DNA of 64,000 nucleotides from an uncultured Prolixibacteraceae bacterium (GTDB taxonomy: Bacteria > Bacteroidota > Bacteroidia > Bacteroidales > FEN-979), in NCBI GenBank assembly GCA_964642545.1, contig CAZXQU010000005.1, positions 1,669-65,668 of the forward strand, given 5' to 3'. Below are positions 19,516-37,148 of this stretch, in pieces. Made by a program: the position numbers and the translations under genes. Under the pieces are notes generated by a model. The model saw only the letters and a program-made list of their open reading frames with translations. It searched no databases and had not been told where the DNA came from. How positions within the stretch are numbered: the first letter of the stretch is position 1; the number at the start of each line of letters is the position of its first letter.

Positions 19516-21291
19516 ATGAGTACTACCGTAACTGTCGGACTTGGAAGCTGCGGAATTGCTGCCGGCGCTAATAAAACCTATGAAAAGATCAAGGCCCTGA
19601 AGGAGAGCGAAAACCTCGACTTTGATCTCAAGAAAACTAGTTGCATCGGGATGTGCTACCGCGAACCTCTGGTAGAGATTGTTGACGATACCGGAACCTA
19701 TATTTATGGAGATGTAAATGCCGAGCGTGCAATCGAAGTCATTGAGAAACATGTCACCCAGCACGACCCGATTCGGGATTATATCGTATACACCGACCTT
19801 TTTGATGCACCCGAGAATAGCTTCATGAACTCACAGGTAAAGATCGTGTTGCGAAACTGTGGCTATATGGACCCTGAGTCGATTGATGAATACGAAGCCC
19901 GCGACGGATACAAGGCAATCAAAAAGATCACAGTGGAGAAGATTCCTGCCGATCAGGTCATCGAAACGATACTCAAATCGGGTCTTCGTGGCCGCGGTGG
20001 TGGTGGATTCCCTACTGGGCTGAAGTGGAAGTTTGCCAGAGCGAATAAATCCGATGAGAAATATGTGATTTGTAATGCCGACGAGGGCGACCCCGGAGCC
20101 TTTATGGATCGCAGCATCCTTGAAGGCGACCCGCACTCGGTTTTGGAAGGGATGATCATCGCAGCTTATAGCATTGGAGCCACAGGCGGGGTCATCTACT
20201 GCCGAGCCGAATACCCACTGGCAATCAAACGCCTCAATATCGCACTGGCTCAGGCCCGTAAACGGGGATACCTCGGGAAAGAGATTCTCGGCATCAAGGA
20301 TTTCAATTTCGATATTTATATCAAGGAGGGAGCCGGAGCATTTGTTTGCGGAGAAGAGACTGCCCTTATCGCCTCCGTTGAAGGAGAACGAGGGATGCCT
20401 CGTAAGCGGCCGCCATTTCCTGCCGAATCGGGATTGTGGCGTAAACCTACCAACATCAATAACGTAGAGACCTTAAACAACATCCCCTGGATTGTTTTGA
20501 ACGGAGCTGAAGCCTTTGCCAAATACGGGACAGAGAAGAGTAAGGGAACAAAAGTATTCGCCCTCGCCGGGAAGGTCAGGAATTCGGGATTGGTAGAGGT
20601 GCCAATGGGTATCACCATCAACGAAGTGATCATGAAACTCGGTGGTGGGATCAAGAACGACAAAAAGTTCAAGGCGGTTCAGTTGGGCGGTCCTTCGGGA
20701 GGCTGTATCCCACAGTATCTTTCAGAGACTATAGTGGATTACGACTCGGTAAATGCTACCGGGGCGATCATGGGATCAGGCGGGATGGTTGTGATGGACG
20801 AAAGTACCTGCATGGTCGATGTGGCTAAATTTTTCCTCGATTTCACCTGTAAAGAGTCTTGTGGAAAGTGTACTTTCTGCCGGGTTGGAACGGTAAGGAT
20901 GCTGGAAATCCTCGAACGCATCACCAACGGCGAAGGGCGCGAAGGGGATATAGAAAAGCTTGAGGAACTGGCATATGAGATCAAGGATAACTCTCTGTGC
21001 GGGCTCGGTCAAACAGCGCCTAATCCTGTACTCACTACCATCAAGTACTTCAGAGATGAATATGAAGCGCACATTGTCCATAAAAAATGCCCCGCGAAAG
21101 TGTGCCGTCCATTGCTGACTTACACCGTTGATCAGGAGAAATGTACCGGTTGCATGGTTTGTTTGAAAAACTGTCCGGCCAACGCCATTACAGGAGAGCG
21201 CAAGCAACCACACCTCATCAACCAGGATCTCTGCACTCAGTGCGGCGTGTGTTATACAAAATGTAAGTTCGACTCGATTATCCTGACATAA
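19516..21291 (+). CDS. NuoF/HydB-like NAD(H)- and FMN-binding subunit with N-terminal thioredoxin-like 2Fe-2S domain and C-terminal 2x[4Fe-4S] ferredoxin extension
   Basis: GLRGRGGGGFPTGLKWKF, ICNADEGDPGAFMDR and ESCGKCTFCR (N3 cluster), followed by CTGCMVCLKNCP...CTQCGVCYTKC. Confidence 0.9.
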   Translation: MSTTVTVGLGSCGIAAGANKTYEKIKALKESENLDFDLKKTSCIGMCYREPLVEIVDDTGTYIYGDVNAERAIEVIEKHVTQHDPIRDYIVYTDLFDAPENSFMNSQVKIVLRNCGYMDPESIDEYEARDGYKAIKKITVEKIPADQVIETILKSGLRGRGGGGFPTGLKWKFARANKSDEKYVICNADEGDPGAFMDRSILEGDPHSVLEGMIIAAYSIGATGGVIYCRAEYPLAIKRLNIALAQARKRGYLGKEILGIKDFNFDIYIKEGAGAFVCGEETALIASVEGERGMPRKRPPFPAESGLWRKPTNINNVETLNNIPWIVLNGAEAFAKYGTEKSKGTKVFALAGKVRNSGLVEVPMGITINEVIMKLGGGIKNDKKFKAVQLGGPSGGCIPQYLSETIVDYDSVNATGAIMGSGGMVVMDESTCMVDVAKFFLDFTCKESCGKCTFCRVGTVRMLEILERITNGEGREGDIEKLEELAYEIKDNSLCGLGQTAPNPVLTTIKYFRDEYEAHIVHKKCPAKVCRPLLTYTVDQEKCTGCMVCLKNCPANAITGERKQPHLINQDLCTQCGVCYTKCKFDSIILT

Positions 21292-21387: not shown

Positions 21388-24300
21388 ATGTCTGAACAAT
21401 CACTAAACATCATATTGGACGGAAAAATCGTTAAGGGAACCCCCGGCGAGACCATTCTGCAACTTGCCACACGAAATGGGATCGAGATCCCTACACTTTG
21501 CAATGATAACCGCCTCGAACCCTATTCCTCGTGTTTCGTCTGCGTTGTTGCTGTAGAGGGCATGAGGGGTCATCAGCCTTCCTGTTCCACACGGATTACG
21601 GAAGGGATGAAGATCACCACCTTCAACGAATCAATCCGAAAATCCCGTAAGATGGCGCTGGAGCTGATGCTGAGCAACCATTATGCCGACTGTATCGGGC
21701 CATGCAAGCAGACATGTCCGGCCGGTGTCGATGTACAGGGGTACATCTCACTGATCGAGAAAGGCAACTACTCAGATGCCATTGCCCTTATCAAGGAGAC
21801 TAATCCCTTACCCGCCATTTGTGGCCGTGTTTGTGTACGCCCGTGTGAAAAAGAGTGCCGCAGAAACCTGCTGGATGAAGGATCGCCCGTTGGTATTGAT
21901 TACCTGAAACGATTTGCAGCCGACTGGGATTTGGCATCCCCGGATAAATTTGTTCCCGACATCAAGCCCTCTACCGGGAAAAAGGTGGCTGTGATTGGTG
22001 CCGGGCCGGGAGGATTGTCCGTTGGCTATTTCATGCAAATACAAGGGCATCAGGTGGATATCTTTGAAGCGGCTCCCCATCCGGGCGGATGGCTTCGTTA
22101 CGGAATTCCCGAATACAGACTGCCTAACGACATCCTGGATCAGGAGGTGAAAAATATTACCGATCTCGGTGTTCAGATCTTCTATAACAAGAAGCTGGGT
22201 GAAAATCTGAGTTACAAGGAGATTGCTGAAAAATACGATGCCACAGTTCTTACTATCGGTTCGCAGATCGGAACCGGGGTTGGATGCGAGGGTGATGATG
22301 CCGGGAATGTTTTTTCGGGGATCGACTTCCTGAAGAACATGGAGGTAACCGAACAACATTATGACTTCAGCGGAAAGACTATAGCCGTGGTTGGTGGCGG
22401 AAATACAGCTATGGACTGCTGCCGTACCTCCATCAGGTGTCATGCCGATAAAGTTTATGTGATCTACCGTCGAACGGAAAAGGAGATGCCTGCCAACCCG
22501 ATTGAGATCCATGAATCGAAATTGGAAGGAGTAGAGTACCTGTTCCTGACCCTTCCACAGAAGATCAACAAAAATGCAAAGGGAGAGGTCGAGACAGTTA
22601 CTTGTATCCGGATGGAATTGGGTGAACCCGATGCTTCTGGCCGTCGTCGGCCGGTTCCCATAGAGGGTTCCGAATTTGATATCAAGGTGGACTACATCCT
22701 GGCTGCCATAGGGCAGAAGACCGATGTAAACTGCATCGACGACATCAATACTACTACTTCAACCGGAGAACTGAAGATCAATAAATGGGGCGATATCGAT
22801 GCCGACCGGAATACACTTCAAACAGGCATTCCATCGGTGTTTGCCGCTGGTGACGGGGTTACCGGACCGGCAACCATCATTGAAGCGATAGCCCAGGCAC
22901 GCGTAGCGGCACACAGTGCGAACCAATACCTCATGGGAGAGGAGATTACACCGGGTAACAAGCCATTTACAAGCAAGCGCGAGAATTTTAAAAAGCAGGT
23001 CAAGGAGGATTTTCTTGGGGCCTTTGACAGCCAGATAAGGGAAGAGATGCCGGTACTGGATGCTGATCAGCGGATGAATTTCGATGAAGTGGAACTCGGT
23101 TACGCCGGGGAAGAGGTTGCACTGCATGAAACCCAGCGTTGCCTAGAATGTGGTTGTAATGCCTTTTTCGATTGTGACCTCCAGCAATATTCTACAGATT
23201 ACAATGCTGATCAAAAGGGATTTGCCGGGGCATATAAGGAGTACCAAGTTGACTTCCGTCATCCCTATATCGAAATCGACAATAACAAATGTATCCTTTG
23301 CTCACGCTGTGTCCGCATTTGCCGTGAAGTGGTTGGCGCCAATGCCCTGGGTCTCGTTAACCGGGGATTTGAAACCTACGTCTCACCAAGTATGGGAGAT
23401 TCTCTCCAGGATACCTACTGCGAATCATGCGGGATGTGTATCTCGACATGTCCAACCGGAGCCATTAGTGAAAATGTGCTCTTCAAACCAGGGCCGGTAC
23501 GCACCACCGCTGCCGAAACCATTTGCAACTACTGTTCGATTGGTTGTTCATTAAACCTGAATCACCTGAACGGTTTCGTGATGAATGTGACAGGAACCAC
23601 CGGATTGGTTAATGAAAAAGGAAATATCTGCCGGTTCCCCCGGTTTGGATACTCCTATCTGAACGATAGAAACCGCATCATCTCTCCTATGAAACGGGTC
23701 AATAGAAAATTTGAAAAGATCACCTTTGAGGAGGCGTTCAGGATCATGTTTGAGAAAATCAGATCGGTAGATCCGGATGATAATGTTTTTTTTGCGGGAG
23801 CACGGCTAACCAATGAAGAACTTTACCTGGTCCAAAAGCTGGCCCGCGCTGGTGCCAAGACCGGAAATATCGGAAGTTTCCATTACCTTAGTAGATGGCA
23901 GGCTTACCGAATGGATGAATCGATGAACACCTCATTTGGTGAGATTGATCAGGCCTCCAAAATTTTCTTGGTTGGTTCAGAAATAAACAGAGATAATGCT
24001 GTTGCAGGATTCATGGTCAGCAATGCCCGTGCAATGAAACATATTCCTGTAGTACTTGTTACAACCCGGGAAGAGAATGCCATGGCCCATAAAGTAGACA
24101 AGATTATCGAGGTAAAATCATACTACTACTTCACTAAAGCCGTAAATCATTTTCTCTTGACAAACAAGATGGAAAATACACTGTTCCTGCGTGATAGGGT
24201 GGATGGCTTGAGTGAATACAAAGAGCAGATGGCAACCGAGGATTATCCTGCACTGTTAGCTAATGCCGGAATAACGGCTGAGGTGGTAAAAAACTTTGCT

Positions 24301-25101
24301 GAAGAGTACAACAATGAGTTGAACGGGATTATCCTCTATTCTGAAAAGGAGGTTTCCGGCAATGGCGCCATCGCCCTGATGAATTTGGCTATGATCACCG
24401 GGAAACTTGGAAAAACCGCCAACGGGTTGATTGTCCTGAAAGAGAAGAATAACGCACAGGGGCTGTTCGACATGGGTATCAACCGGAAGTATGGCGTAGG
24501 GGGCAGGAGCCTGACTGATACAGCCTACCTGAAACACCTCATGGAAGCCTGGAAGGTTGATTCAATACCGGGTCCTGATCTTGTATGCCTCAAAACGAAC
24601 CTCACGCTAGGGAAGATCAAAAACATCTTTATCTTTGGGGAAGATCCCGTGGGATGCGACATTACCGGATCCTATTCCACATTGATTGAACAAATCCCGT
24701 TCAAAGTAGTTCAGGATTATTTCATGACGGATACGGCGAAGATGGCCGACCTGATTCTGCCAGCTTCATTCCCAACGGAAATTGGGGGCACCTTCTCCAA
24801 TACACAGAAGGTAATCCTGGAGTTTGACAAGGTTTTGCCTTCCCGTTTGGCGATGGATTCCATTCAGCAGCTCATCAAGACCCTGAAACGTTTCGGGTTG
24901 AATGGAGTGGAGAGCAGGGAGGATGTTTTCTCTGAGATCATCCAGCTGCTGCCGCAAACGGAGGAGGAGATGCCGGTTGAGAAACTCTCGCTGACGTACA
25001 GCGTTGACGATAATCCCAACCGTGCCTTTAACTTCGGATGCGACTACCTTGTGAAGCGATTTGAAGAGGAGTTTGAAAACCGAATGAAAAATGGAAATTA
25101 G
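21388..25101 (+). CDS. 1237-aa fusion subunit: N-terminal plant-type 2Fe-2S, then a GltD/NfnB-like FeS + FAD/NAD(P)H module, then NuoG/FdhA-type FeS cluster domains, then a truncated degenerate molybdopterin-oxidoreductase-like domain
   Basis: LNIILDGKIV..IEIPTLC..SCFVCVV. CPAGVDVQGYI..ETNPLPAICGRVCVRPCEKEC. KVAVIGAGPGGLSVGY...AVVGGGNTAMDC. CILCSRCVRIC, CESCGMCISTCP, CNYCSIGCSL. No Cys/Sec-His active-site motif and no C-terminal molybdopterin-binding barrel. Confidence 0.85.
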   Translation: MSEQSLNIILDGKIVKGTPGETILQLATRNGIEIPTLCNDNRLEPYSSCFVCVVAVEGMRGHQPSCSTRITEGMKITTFNESIRKSRKMALELMLSNHYADCIGPCKQTCPAGVDVQGYISLIEKGNYSDAIALIKETNPLPAICGRVCVRPCEKECRRNLLDEGSPVGIDYLKRFAADWDLASPDKFVPDIKPSTGKKVAVIGAGPGGLSVGYFMQIQGHQVDIFEAAPHPGGWLRYGIPEYRLPNDILDQEVKNITDLGVQIFYNKKLGENLSYKEIAEKYDATVLTIGSQIGTGVGCEGDDAGNVFSGIDFLKNMEVTEQHYDFSGKTIAVVGGGNTAMDCCRTSIRCHADKVYVIYRRTEKEMPANPIEIHESKLEGVEYLFLTLPQKINKNAKGEVETVTCIRMELGEPDASGRRRPVPIEGSEFDIKVDYILAAIGQKTDVNCIDDINTTTSTGELKINKWGDIDADRNTLQTGIPSVFAAGDGVTGPATIIEAIAQARVAAHSANQYLMGEEITPGNKPFTSKRENFKKQVKEDFLGAFDSQIREEMPVLDADQRMNFDEVELGYAGEEVALHETQRCLECGCNAFFDCDLQQYSTDYNADQKGFAGAYKEYQVDFRHPYIEIDNNKCILCSRCVRICREVVGANALGLVNRGFETYVSPSMGDSLQDTYCESCGMCISTCPTGAISENVLFKPGPVRTTAAETICNYCSIGCSLNLNHLNGFVMNVTGTTGLVNEKGNICRFPRFGYSYLNDRNRIISPMKRVNRKFEKITFEEAFRIMFEKIRSVDPDDNVFFAGARLTNEELYLVQKLARAGAKTGNIGSFHYLSRWQAYRMDESMNTSFGEIDQASKIFLVGSEINRDNAVAGFMVSNARAMKHIPVVLVTTREENAMAHKVDKIIEVKSYYYFTKAVNHFLLTNKMENTLFLRDRVDGLSEYKEQMATEDYPALLANAGITAEVVKNFAEEYNNELNGIILYSEKEVSGNGAIALMNLAMITGKLGKTANGLIVLKEKNNAQGLFDMGINRKYGVGGRSLTDTAYLKHLMEAWKVDSIPGPDLVCLKTNLTLGKIKNIFIFGEDPVGCDITGSYSTLIEQIPFKVVQDYFMTDTAKMADLILPASFPTEIGGTFSNTQKVILEFDKVLPSRLAMDSIQQLIKTLKRFGLNGVESREDVFSEIIQLLPQTEEEMPVEKLSLTYSVDDNPNRAFNFGCDYLVKRFEEEFENRMKNGN

Positions 25102-28987: not shown

Positions 28988-29551
28988 ATGAAAACAACAA
29001 TTCTGGAGCCGGGTAAATTTTATCACATTTATAATCGGGCCAAAAACGGGAACCCATTATTCCCCGAAGACGAAGACATCCAGTTCTTCCTGAAACTCTA
29101 CAAAACACACATCGTCCCTGTTGCGGAGACTTGGGCATACTGTATCCTCGACGACCATGTCCATTTTCTGGTTAGATTAAAAGAGGATCTGAATGGCAAT
29201 GCATACAAACCATTTGCGTTGCTCTTCAACTCCTACGCTAAGGGCTATCACAAGAAAAACGGAAGTGAGGGAAAACTTTTCAAATTCAAACTCAAGCGTG
29301 TTGAGATCCACAGAGAAACGGTCTTACGGGATGTGATCCGTTACATCAACCAAAATGCCCGCAAACATGGGTTGGTTGAGGATTGTTCCCGGTACAGGTA
29401 CTCCTCCTTTCGCGCTACTGTCACCACCTGGCCTACTTTGATTCCTAAGGAAGAGATTCTCAGGCGATTTGGCAATAGGGAGATGTTATCTCATATCCTG
29501 GCCGAACCAGTGAAGGAGAAAGGGTTGAAGATGTACCTGCTTGAAGAATGA
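28988..29551 (+). CDS. HUH/Y1 transposase of the IS200/IS605 TnpA - REP-associated tyrosine transposase (RAYT) type
   Basis: GKFYHIYNRAKNGNPLF, HUH motif DDHVHFLV, and catalytic-Tyr helix VIRYINQNARKHGLV. Confidence 0.8.
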   Translation: MKTTILEPGKFYHIYNRAKNGNPLFPEDEDIQFFLKLYKTHIVPVAETWAYCILDDHVHFLVRLKEDLNGNAYKPFALLFNSYAKGYHKKNGSEGKLFKFKLKRVEIHRETVLRDVIRYINQNARKHGLVEDCSRYRYSSFRATVTTWPTLIPKEEILRRFGNREMLSHILAEPVKEKGLKMYLLEE

Positions 29552-29751: not shown

Positions 29752-32469
29752 TTAGTTGTTTATGAGTTTTATAGCGGTTTGATACAGTGAAGTAGTGATG
29801 GAAAAAATGTAAAGTCCTGTGGCGAATCCCGAAAGGTCAACCGGGTAAATATTATCTCCCGGAACTCCCGATATTGCCTTGGTAAAAAGATCCTTTCCGG
29901 ATGCCTGATACAGGCTTAGGGTACCAGTGAAGTCCGTTTCGCTGTGGTATATTACTTCGTAATTCCCATCTCCCAGGTTTCTCACTACCAAGGGCTCCTC
30001 CTTGTTTGAGGGTTGTTCCTCCCTCCCCTCAATAAATTCGGCTGTAAACTTACAGGCTGATGCAAAACGGATCCACAACAAGGAGTTTGTCTCATCCGGA
30101 TAATACTCCAGAATATTTCCGGATGTAGGCACGAACTCACTTGGATAGGATGAATAGAACCCCACCCAACCCGAATCGCTTACATAACCCGAATGAAGCA
30201 TATCAGATTCGATCTGGTAGCATACATCCATCCGATGGCTGCAAATAATGTAGTTTTGATCAATTGTCCTAAGGGAATCTCCATGTTCCAGGAAAAACAG
30301 GGATGGATTGATGAAATCGACCTTAACAAGGTTTAGGGTGCCATTCCCCTGGATTGGCCCCTGAAAACCACTTGCCGTTGCAAGGACTGTTACCATGACG
30401 GAGTCCTGCTGAGTAAAAATCAGGTTCTGAAAAGTCCCATCCACAACCTGGATGGCATTGACAGATAATCCTGCATCCAGGGTGGTGACTTCGGGTGGTG
30501 TATCGTTAAACGGAAAAAGAACGGAAAGAAACTGAGTGTTCTCGATACTTTCTTTTTGTATAAGCATTTTACTGTAATATCGGTATTGATTGGTACCGGT
30601 GGCAAGGCTGTCAATAGCTGCTGAATAATTTGTTGCGCCGCCGGCTGAGATGGTATGCACAAGAAGTTGGGTTGAATCTCTTGACCAGATGCCCTGGTGG
30701 TTGGTAAAATCAGGGGTGAAAGCTCCTTCAGGAGTGCCGGAAATCCCCCCTTCAAGCCCGTTTCCCTGAAGCTGGAATGTGTATGTATTTGGGCTAACTG
30801 AAGTGATAAAATCGGCTACGATAATATAACGGTCCCTAACAAAGAAGCTCTTCCGGATGATATCAGCACCAAAATAGGCTGTCCGGATCTCTCCGTAATC
30901 GAGCTCGGGTGTATCAAAATAGTTCTCAATCCAGCAGGTGTTTGTTGCAATACTCACCGCTTCACCCACCGGAGGCAGTGGCCCGAATCCGTTCACCAGT
31001 ATCAGTGAGTGGTTGGAGGCGTTGTTCACGGCCGATGATTCCTGGTATCCGGGATATCCGGGATCCACTGCAAGGAGTTCTCCATTGGCCATCAGCGAGA
31101 AACTGCTGGCATCCCCCTGGTGATGGGCTTTGGCGCCGGATAATGCGATACCATGTTTCCCGATGAAATGCATAAATAGGGCATCGGGATCATGTGACGA
31201 CCGAAAAATGAGGCTGCCGGCTTCGGGGAGCGCCCTGAAAAGGGTGTCGGGGAAGAGGCCCTCCTCCACATTCGTGCTGATATATTGCGTACGCCACATC
31301 ACATCTGTAGGGGGGAAGTGTGGATTGGGAATATTAAACCGGCTGTTGCCTGAAAGAGTGGTGATGCTGGTTCCAAACCCGATCGGACTGTCATGGATTG
31401 CGGGAGAGCTTCCGTCGGGCATACGGATCTGGATCATCCATTCGTAGAGGTTAGCGTAATTGGGGTCATACCATGGATTGCGGATATTCCTTGTCACCAT
31501 ATTGAATGTCATGGGATAAGTGGCATCCGGGAGGAAGTTCCAGAAAGCGCGGATAAAGGGAAAAGCATTCTCGAACCCATATTCAAAATAGGCTGGTCCT
31601 TCAGCATATCCTGCGATCGTATCAGGTTCGGAAACCCTTGGGTAGACTCCATTTTCCCGCCAGAGAGTGTTATCCAGGTTCCACAATCCGGCATCGATCC
31701 AGTTTTGCGGCTGGTAATCGGGATCGCTGCTTTCGTTGTCGTTCAGCACAATTGCTGCCAGGCCAAGTGCCGAAGCGGTCATGATGCTATGGTTGTTGAA
31801 CTGGAATTCGAAAAACTTGAACTGCCAGATGAGAACCGTATAGGTCGCCATCGCCCGGTTATACAAATGGGCTGAAAACTCAATCAACGAATCCTTTGCC
31901 AACTGCAGACTGTCAACTGCCAACTGTTGTCCCATCAGCAGATCGTAGGCGATGAGGTAGTTAATCAACTCCTTCGACCGGTGTTGCCACTCCTGGTAGA
32001 AGATCCAGCCCGACTGGAATCCGACAACCGTGTTGATCTCCTCAAGAAGCTGTTTACTTTTCGCTGTTAGTTGTTCACGTTCGGTTGGGGTCAGTGGAAT
32101 AATGGAGCTGGATGAAGGCTTTCTGTCCATCAGTGCAGCAAATGCTGCCTCTTTGGCGATCGTTGACCGGGTGAACCGTTCACCGTTGGTTGTGTTCCCT
32201 GATGGAATGTCGCTGTTCGCATGACTCCATACCAGTTCATAAATGGAATAGATTTTCGGATCTGTCAGAGTGTTTTTGATTACCTCTATCTGAGTGGTAT
32301 CAAGTAAGGTGCGCGGAAAGGTCAGGTCGGCACCGGGAGGATTCCAGGAGCCCTGCGATAGAGAAGTCAGTGGGGTTGCCAGGACTAAAAATAAGGCAGT
32401 ATAGGTCACCCATCTCTTTAAATCAGTTGTGGTTGATTGTATTCTTCCGGAGATTGAGAGAAGTTGCAT
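29752..32469 (-). CDS. Heparinase II/III-like (polysaccharide lyase-like) secreted protein with T9SS C-terminal sorting domain
   Basis: Signal peptide. Central HHQGDASSFSLMANGELLAVDPGYPGY (Hepar_II_III pattern). The last 80 or so aa (...GTLSLYQASGKDLF...GLYIFSITTS..IKLINN) look like a T9SS CTD. Confidence 0.7.
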   Translation of the reverse strand: MQLLSISGRIQSTTTDLKRWVTYTALFLVLATPLTSLSQGSWNPPGADLTFPRTLLDTTQIEVIKNTLTDPKIYSIYELVWSHANSDIPSGNTTNGERFTRSTIAKEAAFAALMDRKPSSSSIIPLTPTEREQLTAKSKQLLEEINTVVGFQSGWIFYQEWQHRSKELINYLIAYDLLMGQQLAVDSLQLAKDSLIEFSAHLYNRAMATYTVLIWQFKFFEFQFNNHSIMTASALGLAAIVLNDNESSDPDYQPQNWIDAGLWNLDNTLWRENGVYPRVSEPDTIAGYAEGPAYFEYGFENAFPFIRAFWNFLPDATYPMTFNMVTRNIRNPWYDPNYANLYEWMIQIRMPDGSSPAIHDSPIGFGTSITTLSGNSRFNIPNPHFPPTDVMWRTQYISTNVEEGLFPDTLFRALPEAGSLIFRSSHDPDALFMHFIGKHGIALSGAKAHHQGDASSFSLMANGELLAVDPGYPGYQESSAVNNASNHSLILVNGFGPLPPVGEAVSIATNTCWIENYFDTPELDYGEIRTAYFGADIIRKSFFVRDRYIIVADFITSVSPNTYTFQLQGNGLEGGISGTPEGAFTPDFTNHQGIWSRDSTQLLVHTISAGGATNYSAAIDSLATGTNQYRYYSKMLIQKESIENTQFLSVLFPFNDTPPEVTTLDAGLSVNAIQVVDGTFQNLIFTQQDSVMVTVLATASGFQGPIQGNGTLNLVKVDFINPSLFFLEHGDSLRTIDQNYIICSHRMDVCYQIESDMLHSGYVSDSGWVGFYSSYPSEFVPTSGNILEYYPDETNSLLWIRFASACKFTAEFIEGREEQPSNKEEPLVVRNLGDGNYEVIYHSETDFTGTLSLYQASGKDLFTKAISGVPGDNIYPVDLSGFATGLYIFSITTSLYQTAIKLINN

Positions 32470-34319
32470 TATTTCTCTGATCGTATCATATTCCTGGGAT
32501 CCAGTACCCGCTCCAACTCCTCCTTCGACATCAACTTCTTTTTTAGGACGAGATCATACACACTGTCTTCTGTCTCAAGTGCCTCTTTTGCTATCAGCGA
32601 ACTATTCTCGTAGCCAATATAAGGGTTGAGCGCAGTAACCAGTCCGATGCTGTTTTCGACCATCTTGCGGCAGTGCTCAGCATTTGCTGTGATGCCGTCA
32701 ATGCACCGGTACCGAAGTGAGTCCATGCCGTTCTTCAGCATCTCGATCGATTCGAGCAGGCTTTGCACGATCACCGGCTCCATCACGTTGAGTTCAAGCT
32801 GGCCGGCTTCAGCGGCAAAACTAACTGTTAGGTCGTTCCCAATCACTTTGAAGGCGATCTGGTTCACGACTTCAGGGATAACGGGATTAACTTTGCCGGG
32901 CATTATGGTAGAACCCGGCTGCATGGGAGGGAGGTTAATCTCATTCAAGCCGGCACGGGGCCCTGAGGAGAGTAGCCTGAGATCATTACAGATCTTACTA
33001 AGTTTGATTGCCAGACGTTTTACAGCGGATGAATAAATTACGTATTGCCCGGTATCCTGGGTCGCTTCAACAAGGTCAACCGCGAGCACGATGTCCAGTC
33101 CGGTTATCTTTCGAAGATATTCCACCACTTTCCCGCTGTATTGAGGGTTGGCATTCAGTCCGGTACCAATCGCAGTTCCCCCCATGTTGATCTCCAGAAA
33201 GAGGTTTGCATTCTCGTTCAGTCGTTCAATCTCTTCCCCCAGGGTGGTAGCGAACGCCCCAAAGGTTTGTCCCAGTGTCATGGGTACCGCATCCTGCAAC
33301 TGGGTTCTTCCCATTTTGATAATAAGGGAGAATTCGACCGATTTTTTGCGGAAGGAGTCGATGAGCTGTTTGAGTACATTCACCAGCTTTTCATTACTCC
33401 GGAAAAGAGCGAGCTGGATAGCAGTAGGATAGACATCGTTTGTCGATTGCGACAGGTTAACGTGGCTGTTGGGATGACAGTACGTGTATTCGCCTTTTTT
33501 ATGCCCGAGTAACTCGAGTGCACGATTGGCTATCACCTCGTTGGCATTCATGTTTGTGGAGGTGCCGGCTCCTCCCTGAATCATGTCCACTACAAAGTGG
33601 TTCAAGAAACGGCTGTCGATAATCTCAAGGCAGGTGCGAATGATGGCATCTGCCATATCTTTTGGAAGCAGTCCAAGGTCATAATTGGCTTCTGCAGCTG
33701 CCATTTTCACAATTGCCAGGGATTTCACCAGTTCGGGGTAAGAATTGAGCCTGACGCCGCTGATATTGAAATTCTCCAGAGCCCGGAGTGTTTGAATGCC
33801 ATAGTAGTATTCATAAGGAACCTCGCGTTCGCCAAGCAAATCATGTTCAGTGCGGGTTCGGCCCGATTCATACTGGGCCGAATCGTCGGAGCTGAGATGA
33901 ACAGCATAACGCAATCTCCGGGAAATAACCCTTGAGATGTTCGACATCACCTTGACAGCAATTGCCCCGTGATGAGAAAAAAAGTCAATCCCCAGGCAAA
34001 GTGTTGTGCTCTCTTCCAGGGCACGCGCCGATGTTGAGTGCGGGTATGTGTCGAGGAGAGACCCTTCACCCAGAAAGTCATATTCGCGGAAGGAGGTGAT
34101 GAACTTCTCCTTTCCAGAAGTTGTCGCCTTAAACAATTCGATCTTTCCGCTCACGACAAAAAAGATCTCTTTTCGGGGTTCGTTTCTTTTGAAAAGGAAC
34201 TCACCGGGTTCAAATGTCTTGAGTGTAACCAAATCGGCTGTGACTGCAATCTCTTCATCCGTGAGATCACGAAAAAGTTCGACTTGGTGCAAAAATTCTT
34301 TGATCTTCAGAAAATCCAT
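32469..34319 (-). CDS. aspA: Aspartate ammonia-lyase with an N-terminal cyclic-nucleotide-binding-like (CAP effector) domain fusion
   Basis: From residue 155 or so it is colinear with E. coli AspA as I remember it (EHDLLGEREVP..YYG.QTLRA.ENF; GRTQLQDAVPMTLGQ; KICNDLRLLSSGPRAGLNEINLP; GSTIMPGKVNP). Residues 8-135 have the cNMP-binding fold pattern. Confidence 0.9.
   Translation of the reverse strand: MDFLKIKEFLHQVELFRDLTDEEIAVTADLVTLKTFEPGEFLFKRNEPRKEIFFVVSGKIELFKATTSGKEKFITSFREYDFLGEGSLLDTYPHSTSARALEESTTLCLGIDFFSHHGAIAVKVMSNISRVISRRLRYAVHLSSDDSAQYESGRTRTEHDLLGEREVPYEYYYGIQTLRALENFNISGVRLNSYPELVKSLAIVKMAAAEANYDLGLLPKDMADAIIRTCLEIIDSRFLNHFVVDMIQGGAGTSTNMNANEVIANRALELLGHKKGEYTYCHPNSHVNLSQSTNDVYPTAIQLALFRSNEKLVNVLKQLIDSFRKKSVEFSLIIKMGRTQLQDAVPMTLGQTFGAFATTLGEEIERLNENANLFLEINMGGTAIGTGLNANPQYSGKVVEYLRKITGLDIVLAVDLVEATQDTGQYVIYSSAVKRLAIKLSKICNDLRLLSSGPRAGLNEINLPPMQPGSTIMPGKVNPVIPEVVNQIAFKVIGNDLTVSFAAEAGQLELNVMEPVIVQSLLESIEMLKNGMDSLRYRCIDGITANAEHCRKMVENSIGLVTALNPYIGYENSSLIAKEALETEDSVYDLVLKKKLMSKEELERVLDPRNMIRSEK
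33915..34319 (-). other. cNMP-binding-like domain of the AspA fusion
   Basis: LFRDLTDEEI...FEPGEFLFKRNEPRKEIFFVVSGKIELFK...DFLGEGSLLDTYPHSTSARA. The phosphate-binding-cassette Arg is replaced by His. Confidence 0.7.
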
Positions 34320-34348
34320 ATGGCAGCTGATTTTACACTACGAAGGTA

Positions 34349-34356
34349 CAAAGTTA
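34349..34356 (-). promoter_or_regulatory. -7 box TAacTTTG for the aspA fusion
   Basis: Forward caaagtta, 30 nt upstream of the ATG at 34317-34319. Confidence 0.45.
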
Positions 34357-34451
34357 AACTGCGTTTTATCCAAAGTTTTAAACATTCCACTTACAAACGT
34401 TCCGATTATCGTAGTTTTACAGAAACCAGCAACCAAAAATCAAAAACCATT

Positions 34452-35852
34452 ATGGGCGGCATTTTCGGAACAATTTCCACAACAGATTGTGTAAACGATC
34501 TCTATTACGGAACGGATTATAATTCACACCTCGGAACCCGTCGTGGAGGGATGGCAGTTTATTCAGGCAGTGGATTTACCAAAGCAATTCATAACATCGA
34601 AAATTCTTATTTCAGGACCAAGTTCGAATCAGACCTTCCAACGTTTATTGGAAAAAGCGGGATCGGGGTGATCAGCGATACCGAATCGCAACCAATCATC
34701 ATACGGTCACACCTGGGAGAGTTTGCTATCGTTACTGTAAGCAAGATCAAAAACATCGAAGAGCTAACTTCAAGGGCTTTGAAGCGACATCAGCATTTTT
34801 CTGAAACCGGAACCATCGGCACCAGTCCCACTGAACTGGTGGCCATTCTGATCAATGAAGAGGAATCTATTGAGAAAGGGATTGAGAATGTTTTCGAAAA
34901 GGTTCAGGGATCCTGCACGATGCTCCTCCTCACCAATAAAGGAATCTTTGCAGCGCGTGATAAACTGGGACGAACTCCTATCATCCTGGGAAAGAAAGAG
35001 GGGGCCTACGCAATCAGTTCGGAGAGCAGTTCTTTTGATAACATTGGCTTTGAGATCGAAAAGTATATTGGACCCGGAGAGATCCTGTTTATCACAGCTG
35101 ATGGAGTAGAACAGTGCAGGAAACCAAATGATAAGATGCAGATCTGTGCATTTCTCTGGGTCTACTATGGCTATCCCAGTTCCTGCTACGAAGGGATCAA
35201 TGTGGAGGCCTGCCGGTACAGATGTGGTGCGGCCCTGGCTAAGCGTGATAAAGAGGTGGTGGATTTTGTGTCGGGCGTTCCTGATTCGGGCATCGCACAT
35301 GCCATCGGCTATTCGAATGAAAAGCAAATCCCTTATAAGCGGGCCTATGTGAAATATACTCCCACCTGGCCACGTAGCTTCATGCCTCAGAATCAGGAGA
35401 TGCGGGATCTCGTTGCCCGGATGAAACTGATCCCTGTCAAGGAGCTGATTGAGGGAAACCGGATCGTTTTCTGTGATGACTCAATCGTTCGGGGTACCCA
35501 ACTTAAAGATACCGTTAAAATACTCTATGACTGTGGTGCAAAGGAGATCCATATCAGGCCTGCGTGCCCAACACTCATCTACCCCTGCGAGTTCCTCAAC
35601 TTCTCAACCTCCCGCACAACGTTCGACCTCGCCGGACGAAGAGCCATTGACCAATTGGGGGAAGGCGAAGAGCACCTCAACGAGTATGCCACACCTGATA
35701 CAGACCGCTATTATGCCATGATAGAAAAGATTCGTGAAAGTCTCGGGGTTACAACACTCCAATATCAGCACCTTAATGATCTGATTGATGCAATTGGTTT
35801 GCCGAAAGAGCAGGTTTGCACACATTGCTGGGACGGAAGTTCCTATTTTTAA
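34452..35852 (+). CDS. Amidophosphoribosyltransferase-like protein (PurF fold) lacking the N-terminal Cys nucleophile
   Basis: Starts MGGIFGTIS (codon 2 is GGC, Gly). PRTase motif VFCDDSIVRGTQ. Gn-AT II-like N-domain. The 604-aa ORF-track version carries a spurious 5' extension antisense to aspA. Confidence 0.8.
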   Translation: MGGIFGTISTTDCVNDLYYGTDYNSHLGTRRGGMAVYSGSGFTKAIHNIENSYFRTKFESDLPTFIGKSGIGVISDTESQPIIIRSHLGEFAIVTVSKIKNIEELTSRALKRHQHFSETGTIGTSPTELVAILINEEESIEKGIENVFEKVQGSCTMLLLTNKGIFAARDKLGRTPIILGKKEGAYAISSESSSFDNIGFEIEKYIGPGEILFITADGVEQCRKPNDKMQICAFLWVYYGYPSSCYEGINVEACRYRCGAALAKRDKEVVDFVSGVPDSGIAHAIGYSNEKQIPYKRAYVKYTPTWPRSFMPQNQEMRDLVARMKLIPVKELIEGNRIVFCDDSIVRGTQLKDTVKILYDCGAKEIHIRPACPTLIYPCEFLNFSTSRTTFDLAGRRAIDQLGEGEEHLNEYATPDTDRYYAMIEKIRESLGVTTLQYQHLNDLIDAIGLPKEQVCTHCWDGSSYF

Positions 35853-35910
35853 ATAGCGAAATGGTGAACCGGAGCGAAGCGGAGTTCGGCATAGCCAAAT
35901 AGCGAAATAG
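35851..35910. repeat. Composite repeat: aaatagcgaaatggt + 25-nt hairpin core gaaccggagcgaagcggagttcggc (35866-35890) + atagcc + aaatagcgaaatag
   Basis: Read directly. The core is identical to 51205-51229. Direct repeats of aaatagcgaaat flank the core. Begins inside the purF-like stop codon. Confidence 0.85.
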
Positions 35911-35952
35911 TTTTTTTCGTGTCTTCGTGTCTTTGTGGTGAAGTCTTTGTTT

Positions 35953-37148
35953 ATGTGCAGGATTCAAATAGTATTCTTCTTTCTTTGTCTTCCGCTTTTG
36001 TTATCTGCCCAGGAGAAGGGGGCCATACAGGGCCGGGTGACAGATGCTGCCACTGGAGAACCGATGCCCTATGCACAGGCTGCATCGGAAAGAACCACCC
36101 TGGGAACGGTTACCAATGAGGATGGAATTTTCAGATTGAAGTTGCCTGATGCCGGATGCCCGGATGCCAATTATCCGGATAGCCTGATGGTTTCGTTTCT
36201 GGGATTTCAGACGGAAAAACTTCAGGTTTCCTCAGTTGATACAGGAACACTGGAGATATTCCTGATCCCTGTTTCTCTCAATCTTCGGGAGGTAGAAATC
36301 ATTGCCTTGTCGTCCCAGGAAGTGCTTCGTAGAGCACTCGACAGCATCTCTGTCAACTATGGGGTTGATCCCGTCATCCTGACTGCTTTTATCCGGACAC
36401 AAAAGATGGTCAATAAAAACTGGCCGAATATACGGAAGCCATTGTGGAGAACCTGATAGACGGATACTATTTATACAAAACCGGAGAGGTAGGAGCGAGC
36501 GCACGATGCCTGGGGTGTAATTTCGTCAGGGATATTGCTGAGTTTCCCTACGAGACAGTACTTGATGAACGGGATAAGAAGCACTATACGTTAAAAATGG
36601 AGGAATTGGTTAACCCCGAAGGAGGCAAGATCTACCGGATCAGGTTTGATCAGAATGAGAAAACGACCAAAACATTATACCAGGGAGAGATCCTGATTGA
36701 TTCCCGTGATTTTGCCATCCTCCAAATCACCTACAAGCCAAGCTACAAAGCATACGATAGTTACGAAAGGAAAAAATACAACCACGTCTGGTACCTGAAC
36801 AGCCAACCCGGCTGGATCCAGGAAATGCCTTTTGGGGAAACTACTGTGACTTATTCTAAACGAGGAGATTATTGGTGTTTGAATACCATTCGTCAACAGT
36901 ATTGGGTCACCTATAACCATCCGCAAAACAGTCAGCGTATCAGCTATGGTTACAAAAACGAAGTTGTCGTCACCAATATCACCCGTGATCCAGTGGTCAT
37001 CCGGGCTTTTGAAGGCGATAAATCGATGGGGGTCAACCAACGCTGGGATGAAGTTGTCGGCGAAACCGATGAAGCTTTCTGGGAAAATTTCAACTACCTG
37101 CCAATTGAGGCGACACTTCAGAAAGAGCTTAACAAGTTGGACAAGTGA
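35953..37148 (+). pseudogene. CarboxypepD_reg-domain protein split by a frameshift in an A5 run (36415-36419)
   Basis: ORFs 35935-36456 and 36444-37148 are adjacent frames. Adding one A to aataaaaac joins ...QKMVNKKLAEYTEAIVENLIDGYY... Signal peptide MCRIQIVFFFLCLPLLLSAQE, then GRVTDAATGEPMPYA. Confidence 0.6.

What the first reader, a model, noticed from the sequence alone, without database searches (positions are those of the whole stretch)
34452..35852. PurF-like amidophosphoribosyltransferase without the catalytic N-terminal cysteine
Ntn-type glutamine amidotransferases, including PurF, use Cys1 (exposed after Met removal: MCG...) as the glutaminase nucleophile. This protein begins MGGIFG (codon 2 is GGC at 34455-34457, one transversion away from TGC). 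The usual LQHRGQ(D/E).AGI segment is replaced by NSHLGTRRGGMAV, whereas the PRTase motif (VFCDDSIVRGTQ) is intact. So the glutaminase half looks inactive or repurposed. It could be ammonia-dependent PRA synthesis (gdhA and aspartase are nearby nitrogen-metabolism genes), a regulatory pseudo-enzyme, or a different PRPP-dependent reaction. It may be a lineage-wide variant rather than a local mutation.
Basis: partly seen in the sequence, partly recalled or inferred. Interest (0 to 1): 0.55.

Follow-up and report, generated by a model that had tools for sequence, protein, structure and literature searches.

The report
Cysteine-less PurF, probably ammonia-dependent
This gene encodes a widespread, conserved relative of the first purine-synthesis enzyme (PurF) that has lost its whole glutamine-splitting site but kept its sugar-phosphate transfer site, so it most likely makes phosphoribosylamine directly from free ammonia, and in some anaerobic Bacteroidales it is the only PurF present.

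Summary
Window 34452-35852 (+) encodes a 466-aa PurF homologue that starts MGGIFG (codon 2 is GGC).

It is not a sequencing error. All full-length N-termini among the 120 closest database homologues have Gly or Ser at this position, and Ala and Thr also occur in more distant members.

The loss covers the whole glutaminase site:
- Cys1, Arg26, Asn101-Gly102 and Asp127 (E. coli numbering) are replaced.
- The Arg73-Tyr74-Thr76 loop is deleted.
- The PRPP loop, the flexible-loop residues and four Fe-S cysteines are conserved.
- The AlphaFold model (pLDDT 92) superposes on solved PurFs at TM 0.82-0.85.

The family is an old, well-supported clade. It occurs in 61 of 201 sampled genomes of the window's order, and also in Desulfobacterota.

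It usually accompanies a glutamine-type PurF. This genome has a 648-aa Cys-bearing one.

Ten purD-positive genomes lack any glutamine-type PurF, and eight of them carry this protein. purL, and sometimes carB, lies next to it.

Best reading (about 0.62): an ammonia-dependent PRPP aminotransferase isozyme. No assay exists, and I found no paper on the bacterial family. The only precedent is the untested crenarchaeal "PurF'" (PMC3261824).

First readers of this scan noted the same feature on at least five other genomes.

The parts
34452..35852 (+). Coding sequence of the Cys-less PurF paralogue (466 aa plus stop), protein P0001
   Evidence: TIGR01134 purF scores 201.7 bits, below its 350-bit cut-off. 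Best solved relative is B. subtilis PurF, E 1e-48. AlphaFold pLDDT 92.3, TM 0.82-0.85 to solved PurFs.
34455..34457 (+). Codon 2 (GGC, Gly), at the position of the Ntn nucleophile Cys1
   Evidence: This position is Gly, Ser or Ala in orthologues and also Thr in more distant family members.
34452..35135 (+). Vestigial Ntn (class-II glutaminase-like) domain, residues about 1-228. The fold is kept and the catalytic and glutamine-binding residues are lost.
   Evidence: PF13537 GATase_7 scores 41.6 bits. Against E. coli numbering: C1>G, R26>L, Q28>T, a 9-residue deletion covering R73/Y74/T76/S79, N101-G102>V-S, and D127 not conserved. Mean pairwise identity is 58.6%, against 63.1% for the C-domain, the same ratio as in canonical PurFs.
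35136..35849 (+). Type-I phosphoribosyltransferase domain with C-terminal extension, residues about 229-466
   Evidence: P302, D303, S304, K326, R332, F334 and D366-T373 (E. coli numbering) are conserved. Family invariants include K301, R308, S309, R318, K325, D343, S344, R347 and Q350.
35466..35501 (+). PRPP-binding loop VFCDDSIVRGTQ (residues 339-350)
35145..35147 (+). Cys232, the first of four putative [4Fe-4S] ligands. The others are Cys379 (35586-35588), Cys456 (35817-35819) and Cys459 (35826-35828).
   Evidence: These align with the cluster cysteines of B. subtilis-type PurF. C232, C379 and C459 are invariant and C456 is at least 90% conserved in 39 family members. That these residues are the cluster ligands in B. 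subtilis PurF is established knowledge, not tested here.
34320..34451 (.). 132-bp intergenic region shared with the divergently transcribed aspA; presumed promoter region
   Evidence: No Rfam family matches 33800-36200 at E<=1. Only weak sigma-70-like consensus matches were found. Function is inferred, not shown.

Best explanation
The gene encodes an ammonia-dependent PRPP aminotransferase. It is an isozyme of PurF that makes 5-phosphoribosylamine (PRA) from PRPP and free NH3, without hydrolysing glutamine.

Shown here:
- The glutaminase nucleophile, oxyanion hole and glutamine-binding residues are all absent.
- The PRTase catalytic residues and the four Fe-S cysteines are conserved.
- The predicted fold is that of a two-domain PurF.

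Inferred:
- NH3 from the cytoplasm reaches C1 of Mg-PRPP and displaces pyrophosphate. It may enter through the former glutamine pocket, which the 9-residue deletion of the loop that closes over bound glutamine would leave open.
- The dead N-domain is kept because it forms the lid and scaffold against which the PRTase flexible loop closes, and because it forms oligomer contacts.
- PRA then passes to PurD.
- The enzyme normally works beside a glutamine-dependent PurF. It saves the ATP cost of glutamine where ammonium is plentiful, as in anoxic sediments, digesters and guts. In some Bacteroidales it has become the sole route into purine synthesis.
- The retained Fe-S cluster fits its restriction to anaerobes.
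For: (1) The active-site dissection is: the glutaminase residues are lost and the PRTase residues are kept.

(2) The fold is kept: pLDDT 92.3, TM 0.82-0.85 to PurF structures 1ao0, 6lbp and 1ecb.

(3) The family is under purifying selection in both domains and forms a supported clade (SH-aLRT 96-99). It is not a decaying pseudogene.

(4) Gap-filling across 201 genomes of the order:
- Long PurF is in 177 genomes and canonical PurF in 10, never together. The Cys-less form is in 61.
- Ten purD-positive genomes lack any glutamine-type PurF, and eight of them carry the Cys-less form (odds ratio 10.5, Fisher p 0.0013).
- The four genomes with no PurF of any kind also lack purD.
- In seven genomes that are 98-100% complete, a TIGR01134 search finds no other PRTase-bearing PurF homologue.
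- purD is present in all seven. A PurM-like gene and purH were found in all five of them that were tested.

(5) purL is adjacent in 7 of 41 loci from at least five families. In five of these it is co-directional with a gap of about 100 bp.

(6) Established knowledge, as cited in PMC3261824: E. coli PurF with Cys1 replaced loses glutamine-dependent activity but keeps ammonia-dependent activity.
Against: - No biochemical or genetic test exists for any member.
- The neighbourhood is variable in most loci, and the gene is patchy even within genera. It is dispensable in most lineages.
- PRA can arise non-enzymatically or from side reactions, so being the sole PurF homologue does not prove that the protein makes PRA.
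- The sole-PurF genomes are drafts, and related genomes are not independent, so the Fisher p overstates the case.
- Two purD-positive genomes have no PurF at all (95% and 77% complete). Assembly gaps do occur.
- The dead domain is as conserved as a live one. This could instead mean that it has gained a new ligand-binding role.
Confidence: 0.62

Rival explanations
1. It is a PRPP-dependent transferase for a nucleophile other than ammonia. The dead N-domain would be repurposed to bind or deliver a different amine, serving a pathway other than purine synthesis.
For: The TIGR01134 score is well below the equivalog cut-off. Distribution is accessory and patchy. Neighbours vary and include carB immediately upstream in Bacteroidales G430 and three Desulfobacterota, and pepT-gcvT downstream in five loci. 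The N-domain is as constrained as in active PurFs, with family-specific conserved residues (D22, Y23, H47, S75).
Against: It is the only PurF-type gene in eight purD-positive genomes. purL is adjacent in seven loci. The PRTase site is almost identical to PurF's. No partner gene recurs consistently enough to define another pathway.
Confidence: 0.17
2. It is a catalytically silent or regulatory pseudo-enzyme. It would form mixed oligomers with the glutamine-dependent PurF, or sense nucleotides or PRPP, to tune purine synthesis.
For: It co-occurs with a glutamine-type PurF in 53 of 61 carriers and in four Desulfobacterota. PurF enzymes are oligomeric allosteric proteins (established knowledge).
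Against: All PRTase catalytic residues and the Fe-S ligands are conserved across a deep family. It stands alone in eight genomes with no PurF partner. The partner differs between lineages: the long form without Fe-S cysteines, or the canonical form. That makes a conserved hetero-oligomer unlikely.
Confidence: 0.1
3. It is still glutamine-dependent, using either another nucleophile in cis or a separate glutaminase subunit in trans.
For: Some members have Ser or Thr at position 2, residues that serve as nucleophiles in other Ntn hydrolases (established knowledge).
Against: Position 2 is Gly or Ala in most members. The oxyanion hole and both glutamine-anchoring residues are gone, and the loop carrying Arg73/Tyr74 is deleted. 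No glutaminase gene is a conserved neighbour. Seven of the eight sole-PurF genomes even lack carA.
Confidence: 0.04
4. It is a sequencing error or a recent inactivating mutation of an ordinary purF.
For: A single transversion separates GGC from TGC.
Against: More than 100 homologues share Gly or Ser at this position, and at least five further glutaminase-site changes accompany it. The family is an old clade.
Confidence: 0.01

Closest known systems
Glutamine PRPP amidotransferase PurF, Fe-S type (B. subtilis 1ao0/1gph; Arabidopsis 6lbp)
   Same: Same two-domain fold (TM 0.83-0.85). Same PRPP loop, flexible-loop residues and four cluster cysteines. About 26% identity over the full length.
   Different: No Cys1. 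Arg26, Asn101-Gly102 and Asp127 are replaced, and the Arg73-Tyr74 loop is deleted. It scores 201.7 bits against a 350-bit equivalog cut-off. It cannot hydrolyse glutamine by the Ntn mechanism.
Crenarchaeal PurF' (Brown et al. 2011, Biol Direct 6:63, PMC3261824)
   Same: A PurF paralogue that lacks the N-terminal Cys (Ala or Val there), co-exists with a true PurF, and was proposed but not tested as an ammonia-dependent PRPP aminotransferase.
   Different: PurF' was described only in Crenarchaeota and lies close to purF and other pur genes. The family here is bacterial (Bacteroidales, Desulfobacterota and others), is usually not in a pur cluster, and can be the sole PurF. Whether the two share one origin was not tested, because no crenarchaeal sequence could be fetched.
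E. coli PurF Cys1 substitution mutants
   Same: Loss of Cys1 abolishes glutamine use but leaves NH3-dependent PRA synthesis (cited in PMC3261824). This is the mechanistic model for the natural protein.
   Different: Those are laboratory point mutants with the rest of the glutamine site intact. Here the whole site has been dismantled and fixed by evolution.
Bacteroidota long PurF (648 aa in this genome, L002:1123-3069)
   Same: Same reaction family and same genome. PRTase motif DDSIVRGTT.
   Different: It keeps Cys1 (after a short propeptide), Arg26, Arg73, Tyr74, Asn101 and Asp127. It has large insertions and lacks the Fe-S cysteines. It is present in 177 of 201 genomes of the order. It is presumably the glutamine-dependent housekeeping enzyme.
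Other ammonia-using counterparts of amidotransferases, and AsnB homologues with a dead Ntn domain (AsnA versus AsnB; NH3-dependent NadE; beta-lactam synthetase, e.g. 1mbz)
   Same: These show the same evolutionary theme: the synthetase half works without glutamine hydrolysis, and in beta-lactam synthetase a Cys-less Ntn domain is retained as a scaffold. This is recalled from established knowledge; 1mbz appears only as a weak fold match.
   Different: They are different enzyme families and reactions. They serve as an analogy only.

Membership tests
PurF, glutamine-dependent amidophosphoribosyltransferase (TIGR01134 equivalog, EC 2.4.2.14) | Score at or above the curated equivalog cut-off (350 bits) | tested here: not met
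   201.7 bits; 193 bits in the six-frame genome search.
PurF, glutamine-dependent amidophosphoribosyltransferase (TIGR01134 equivalog, EC 2.4.2.14) | N-terminal nucleophile Cys1, exposed by removal of Met or a propeptide | tested here: not met
   Gly2 aligns with Cys1. The position is Gly, Ser, Ala or Thr across the family. No upstream start can supply a Cys.
PurF, glutamine-dependent amidophosphoribosyltransferase (TIGR01134 equivalog, EC 2.4.2.14) | Glutamine-site residues: Arg26, Arg73, Tyr74, Asn101-Gly102 (oxyanion hole) and Asp127 (E. coli numbering) | tested here: not met
   R26>L/M; the R73-Y74-T76-S79 segment is deleted; N101-G102>V-S/A/G; D127 is variable. The roles of these residues come from established knowledge of E. 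coli PurF.
PurF, glutamine-dependent amidophosphoribosyltransferase (TIGR01134 equivalog, EC 2.4.2.14) | Type-I PRTase domain with PRPP loop (DDSIVRGT) and flexible-loop Lys/Arg | tested here: met
   D366-T373, K326, R332, F334 and P302-S304 are conserved and invariant in the family alignment.
PurF, glutamine-dependent amidophosphoribosyltransferase (TIGR01134 equivalog, EC 2.4.2.14) | Two-domain PurF fold | tested here: met
   AlphaFold pLDDT 92.3, pTM 0.91. TM 0.82-0.85 to 1ao0, 6lbp, 1gph and 1ecb.
PurF, glutamine-dependent amidophosphoribosyltransferase (TIGR01134 equivalog, EC 2.4.2.14) | Catalyses PRA formation in purine biosynthesis | not testable with these tools
   Indirect support only: it is the sole PurF homologue in eight purD-positive genomes and lies next to purL.
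Class-II (Ntn) glutamine amidotransferase domain (Pfam GATase_7, PF13537) | Domain profile match above the gathering score | tested here: met
   41.6 bits against a 25-bit cut-off, residues 75-195.
Class-II (Ntn) glutamine amidotransferase domain (Pfam GATase_7, PF13537) | Catalytic N-terminal Cys | tested here: not met
Crenarchaeal PurF' (PMC3261824) | PurF paralogue without the N-terminal Cys, co-existing with a Cys-bearing PurF | tested here: met
   This genome has both. So do 53 of 61 carriers in the order.
Crenarchaeal PurF' (PMC3261824) | Same phylogenetic cluster as the crenarchaeal PurF' sequences | not tested
   No crenarchaeal sequence could be obtained.
Crenarchaeal PurF' (PMC3261824) | Located close to purF and other purine genes | tested here: not met
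   In the window no pur gene is adjacent. Across loci purL is adjacent in only 7 of 41.

The most novel reading that the evidence does not exclude
The Cys-less proteins are a distinct, ancient enzyme class: obligately ammonia-dependent, Fe-S-containing PRA synthases of anaerobes. In some Bacteroidales lineages this enzyme has fully replaced glutamine-dependent PurF. Seven of the eight such genomes also lack carA, and in G430 carB sits directly upstream of this gene. The entry steps of both purine and pyrimidine synthesis would then run on free ammonia rather than glutamine. The conserved dead domain would act as a permanently open ammonia port and lid.
Probability: 0.4. Interest if true: 0.7.

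Novelty: new variant of a known kind. Interest (0 to 1): 0.58.

Why it matters
- **Annotation.** Databases name these proteins 'amidophosphoribosyltransferase', so metabolic models assume a glutamine-dependent step. If the family uses ammonia, nitrogen and ATP budgets for many anaerobic Bacteroidales and Desulfobacterota are mis-stated. Some of these organisms would enter purine synthesis without glutamine.
- **Enzyme evolution.** The family is a natural experiment on how an Ntn amidotransferase sheds its glutaminase chemistry yet keeps the domain under full constraint. That bears on what the domain contributes besides catalysis, such as channel, lid or allostery.
- **A testable old proposal.** It gives a bacterial, experimentally accessible counterpart to the PurF' hypothesis raised for Crenarchaeota in 2011 and apparently never tested.
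- **Ecology.** It may mark adaptation to ammonium-rich anoxic habitats.

Tried and rejected
- **Sequencing error or local mutation:** rejected, because the change is family-wide.
- **Earlier start or propeptide supplying a Cys:** rejected. The aligned position is Gly whatever the start, and upstream sequence is not conserved.
- **Riboswitch or other RNA element in the leader:** no Rfam match in 33800-36200 at E<=1.
- **Functional link to neighbouring nitrogen genes in the window:** aspA is adjacent but not a conserved neighbour, and gdhA is 20 kb away.
- **Relaxed selection on the dead domain:** not found. The N/C-domain identity ratio equals that of canonical PurFs.
- **New strictly conserved catalytic-looking residues in the N-domain:** none are convincing. 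Invariants in the wider family are mostly Gly and Phe.
- **General association between the Cys-less PurF and absence of carA:** not found (carA is present in 42 of 61 carriers and 66 of 140 non-carriers). Only the sole-PurF genomes stand out.
- **Adjacent PurL also glutamine-dead:** no, its Cys-His-Glu motifs are intact.
- **Literature:** six full-text searches found no paper on a bacterial Cys-less PurF. Two further papers were opened for PurF residue roles and gave nothing usable.
- **3D mapping of conserved residues:** not possible, because model coordinates are not exposed to scripts.

Full report
**Observation**

Window 34452-35852 (+) is an open reading frame of 466 codons plus a stop. 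It begins ATG GGC GGC ATT TTC GGA, which reads MGGIFG.

The protein matches the purF equivalog model TIGR01134 over its whole length, but at 201.7 bits against a curated cut-off of 350. Pfam finds only the class-II amidotransferase domain above threshold (GATase_7, 41.6 bits). The PRTase match is weak. The best solved relatives are B. subtilis PurF (1gph/1ao0, E 1e-48), then the Arabidopsis, other and E. coli PurFs. In that alignment Gly2 pairs with the mature N-terminal Cys1.

**Not an error, and not only one residue**

- Of the 120 best homologues in the large protein collection, 118 begin MGG(F/I/L)FG or MSGFFG.
- Orthologues taken directly from other genomes begin MGGFFG, MSGFFG or MAGFFG. 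Their upstream sequence is unrelated, so the start codon is sound and no propeptide could expose a Cys.

I aligned the protein with E. coli PurF (taken from NC_000913), with nine Cys-bearing PurFs of the same phylum, and with this genome's own long PurF. In E. coli numbering:

| Residue(s) | In this family |
|---|---|
| Cys1 | Gly, Ser or Ala |
| Arg26 | Leu or Met |
| Gln28 | Thr |
| Arg73, Tyr74, Thr76, Ser79 | deleted (9-residue gap) |
| Asn101-Gly102 | Val-Ser/Ala/Gly |
| Asp127 | not conserved |
| Pro302-Asp303-Ser304, Lys326, Arg332, Phe334, Asp366-Thr373 | all kept |

By established knowledge of E. coli PurF, the lost residues are the nucleophile, the oxyanion hole, the two anchors for glutamine and the gate of the ammonia channel.

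Four cysteines align with the [4Fe-4S] ligands of B. subtilis-type PurF: C232, C379, C456 and C459. They are invariant or nearly so in 39 family members.

An AlphaFold model built on that alignment is confident (pLDDT 92.3, pTM 0.91). It superposes on solved PurFs at TM 0.82-0.85. The protein is therefore a well-folded two-domain PurF with a dismantled glutaminase site and an intact transferase site.

**The family**

A search of 1.84 billion representatives found 992 proteins at E<=1e-30. Dozens of full-length clusters at 34-59% identity start MGG, MSG, MTG or MAG and share a GTDYHSHLG-like motif in place of LQHRGQ.

A maximum-likelihood tree of 73 sequences gives these results:
- The Cys-less proteins form one clade (SH-aLRT 96, core 99).
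- That clade is nested in a 100%-supported group with a few short Cys-bearing PurFs. It is separate from the canonical PurFs of the phylum and from the E. coli type.
- The window's protein groups with Desulfobacterota sequences (support 95).

A scan of species-representative genomes found orthologues at 63-67% identity in Desulfofustis glycolicus DSM 9705 and in Desulfatitalea, Desulfosarcina and Desulfobacula MAGs. It also found many uncultured Bacteroidales from sediments and digesters. The tree and this distribution imply transfer between phyla.

The dead domain is not decaying. Mean pairwise identity is 58.6% for the N-domain and 63.1% for the C-domain among orthologues. For canonical Fe-S PurFs of the same phylum the figures are 61.1% and 65.8%.

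**Genome context**

The window's genome (91% complete) holds three TIGR01134 matches:
- this gene;
- GlmS;
- a 648-aa long PurF with ...HHE-CGIALV and HNRGQDGAG. This one keeps Cys1, Arg26, Arg73, Tyr74, Asn101 and Asp127 but lacks the Fe-S cysteines.

In the window, the upstream divergent gene is an aspartate ammonia-lyase with an N-terminal cyclic-nucleotide-binding domain. gdhA is 20 kb away.

Across 81 loci from other genomes the neighbourhood is mostly variable. The recurring neighbours are:
- **purL:** adjacent in 7 of 41 loci, and co-directional with a gap of about 100 bp in five of them.
- **carB:** immediately upstream and co-directional in one Bacteroidales genome and three Desulfobacterota.
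- **pepT-gcvT:** downstream in five loci.

No Rfam element lies in the leader.

**Phyletic pattern**

I searched the same 201 genomes of the window's order with five queries (tabulated).

| Gene | Genomes with it |
|---|---|
| Long PurF | 177 |
| Canonical PurF (over cut-off) | 10, never together with the long form |
| Cys-less PurF | 61 |
| purD | 191 |

- Ten purD-positive genomes have no glutamine-type PurF, and eight of them carry the Cys-less protein.
- The other two of the ten have no PurF at all. They are 95% and 77% complete.
- The four genomes with no PurF of any kind also lack purD.
- Among purD-positive genomes that do have a glutamine-type PurF, 50 of 181 carry the Cys-less form.
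- The odds ratio is 10.5 and Fisher p is 0.0013. The eight genomes come from seven families, and relatedness inflates this statistic.

In seven of the eight (98-100% complete), a direct TIGR01134 search found only the Cys-less gene plus GlmS- or AsnB-like N-domain matches. purD is present in all seven. The PurM-like gene and purH were found in all five tested. The four Desulfobacterota carriers examined also hold a canonical PurF.

**Interpretation**

The simplest account is that this is a PRA-forming enzyme that takes ammonia directly. The chemistry has a precedent: E. coli PurF without Cys1 loses glutamine-dependent activity but keeps ammonia-dependent activity (cited in PMC3261824).

Its usual role would be as a second isozyme beside a glutamine-dependent PurF in anaerobes from ammonium-rich habitats. 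In some lineages it is the only one.

Three parts of this account are inference:
- The N-domain is retained because the PRTase flexible loop closes against it.
- The loop deletion opens the old glutamine pocket as an ammonia entrance.
- The Fe-S cluster ties the enzyme to anoxia.

The rivals cannot be excluded without an assay. They are a different nucleophile, a regulatory pseudo-enzyme, and a trans glutaminase. The gap-filling pattern, the purL adjacency and the intact catalytic site weigh against all three.

**Comparison with what is known**

Six literature searches found one precedent. Brown et al. 2011 described crenarchaeal PurF' proteins that lack the Cys. They suggested, without testing, an ammonia-dependent aminotransferase.

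I found nothing on the bacterial family. NCBIfam has no model for it, and sources name it simply amidophosphoribosyltransferase.

Whether the bacterial clade and PurF' share an origin was not tested. An atlas look-up hints at related clusters in methanogens and Bathyarchaeota, which is a lead only.

First readers of this scan had already noted the same feature on at least five other genomes, and one had noted the carB adjacency. None of those notes carried a follow-up.

**Limits**

- Model coordinates could not be analysed.
- All functional statements are inferences from sequence and distribution.

Noticed in passing
window 32469-34319 (-): Aspartate ammonia-lyase (aspA, 714 bits over residues 156-613) fused to an N-terminal domain of about 150 aa that resembles cyclic-nucleotide-binding domains. 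It is transcribed divergently from the Cys-less PurF. The fusion suggests ligand-controlled aspartase. The adjacency is not conserved in other genomes.
   Followed up: partly
201 genomes of the window's order; G430:C11 (locus L069): carA (the glutaminase subunit of carbamoyl-phosphate synthetase) was found in only 108 of 201 sampled genomes of the order. Seven of the eight genomes whose only PurF is the Cys-less form lack it. In G430, carB sits 19 bp upstream of the Cys-less PurF. This suggests ammonia-dependent carbamoyl-phosphate synthesis in many of these anaerobes.
   Followed up: partly
L129:2526-5843, L130:2757-5960, L132 (Desulfofustis glycolicus DSM 9705 and Desulfatitalea MAGs): carB with no carA next to it is directly followed, on the same strand, by the Cys-less PurF. 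This apparent carB-purF' operon recurs in a second phylum.
   Followed up: partly
G000 contig 10 (L002:1123-3069): This is the 648-aa Bacteroidota long PurF. It has a short propeptide before Cys1, large insertions, Gly102>Phe and no Fe-S cysteines. It scores only 110 bits on TIGR01134. It is the common glutamine-type PurF of the order (177 of 201 genomes) and never co-occurs with the canonical form.
   Followed up: partly
window 21388-25101 (+): A 1237-aa fusion protein. The N-terminal half resembles the small subunit of NADPH-dependent glutamate synthase (GltD), and the C-terminal half resembles NuoG or formate dehydrogenase alpha, a molybdopterin oxidoreductase. A NuoF-like gene (19516-21291) precedes it.
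   Followed up: no
window 28988-29551 (+): A weak match to REP-associated tyrosine transposase (51 bits, below the 80-bit cut-off).
   Followed up: no
window 35935-36456 and 36444-37148 (+): Two overlapping ORFs in different frames lie directly downstream of the PurF gene. The first has a domain resembling a SusC/RagA N-terminal domain. They may be one gene split by a frameshift.
   Followed up: no
window 35866-35890: An earlier agent of this scan reported a 25-nt copy of a 30-nt mobile insert of Bacteroidia just after the PurF stop codon (note e1-4911606). I did not examine it.
   Followed up: no
representatives P0221, P0233, P0248, P0258: Some PurF-like proteins lack Cys1 (MAG, MTG or MGG starts) but still carry a QHRG- or QDRGQ-like motif. 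They branch at or outside the base of the Cys-less clade. They may be intermediate or independent losses of the nucleophile.
   Followed up: no
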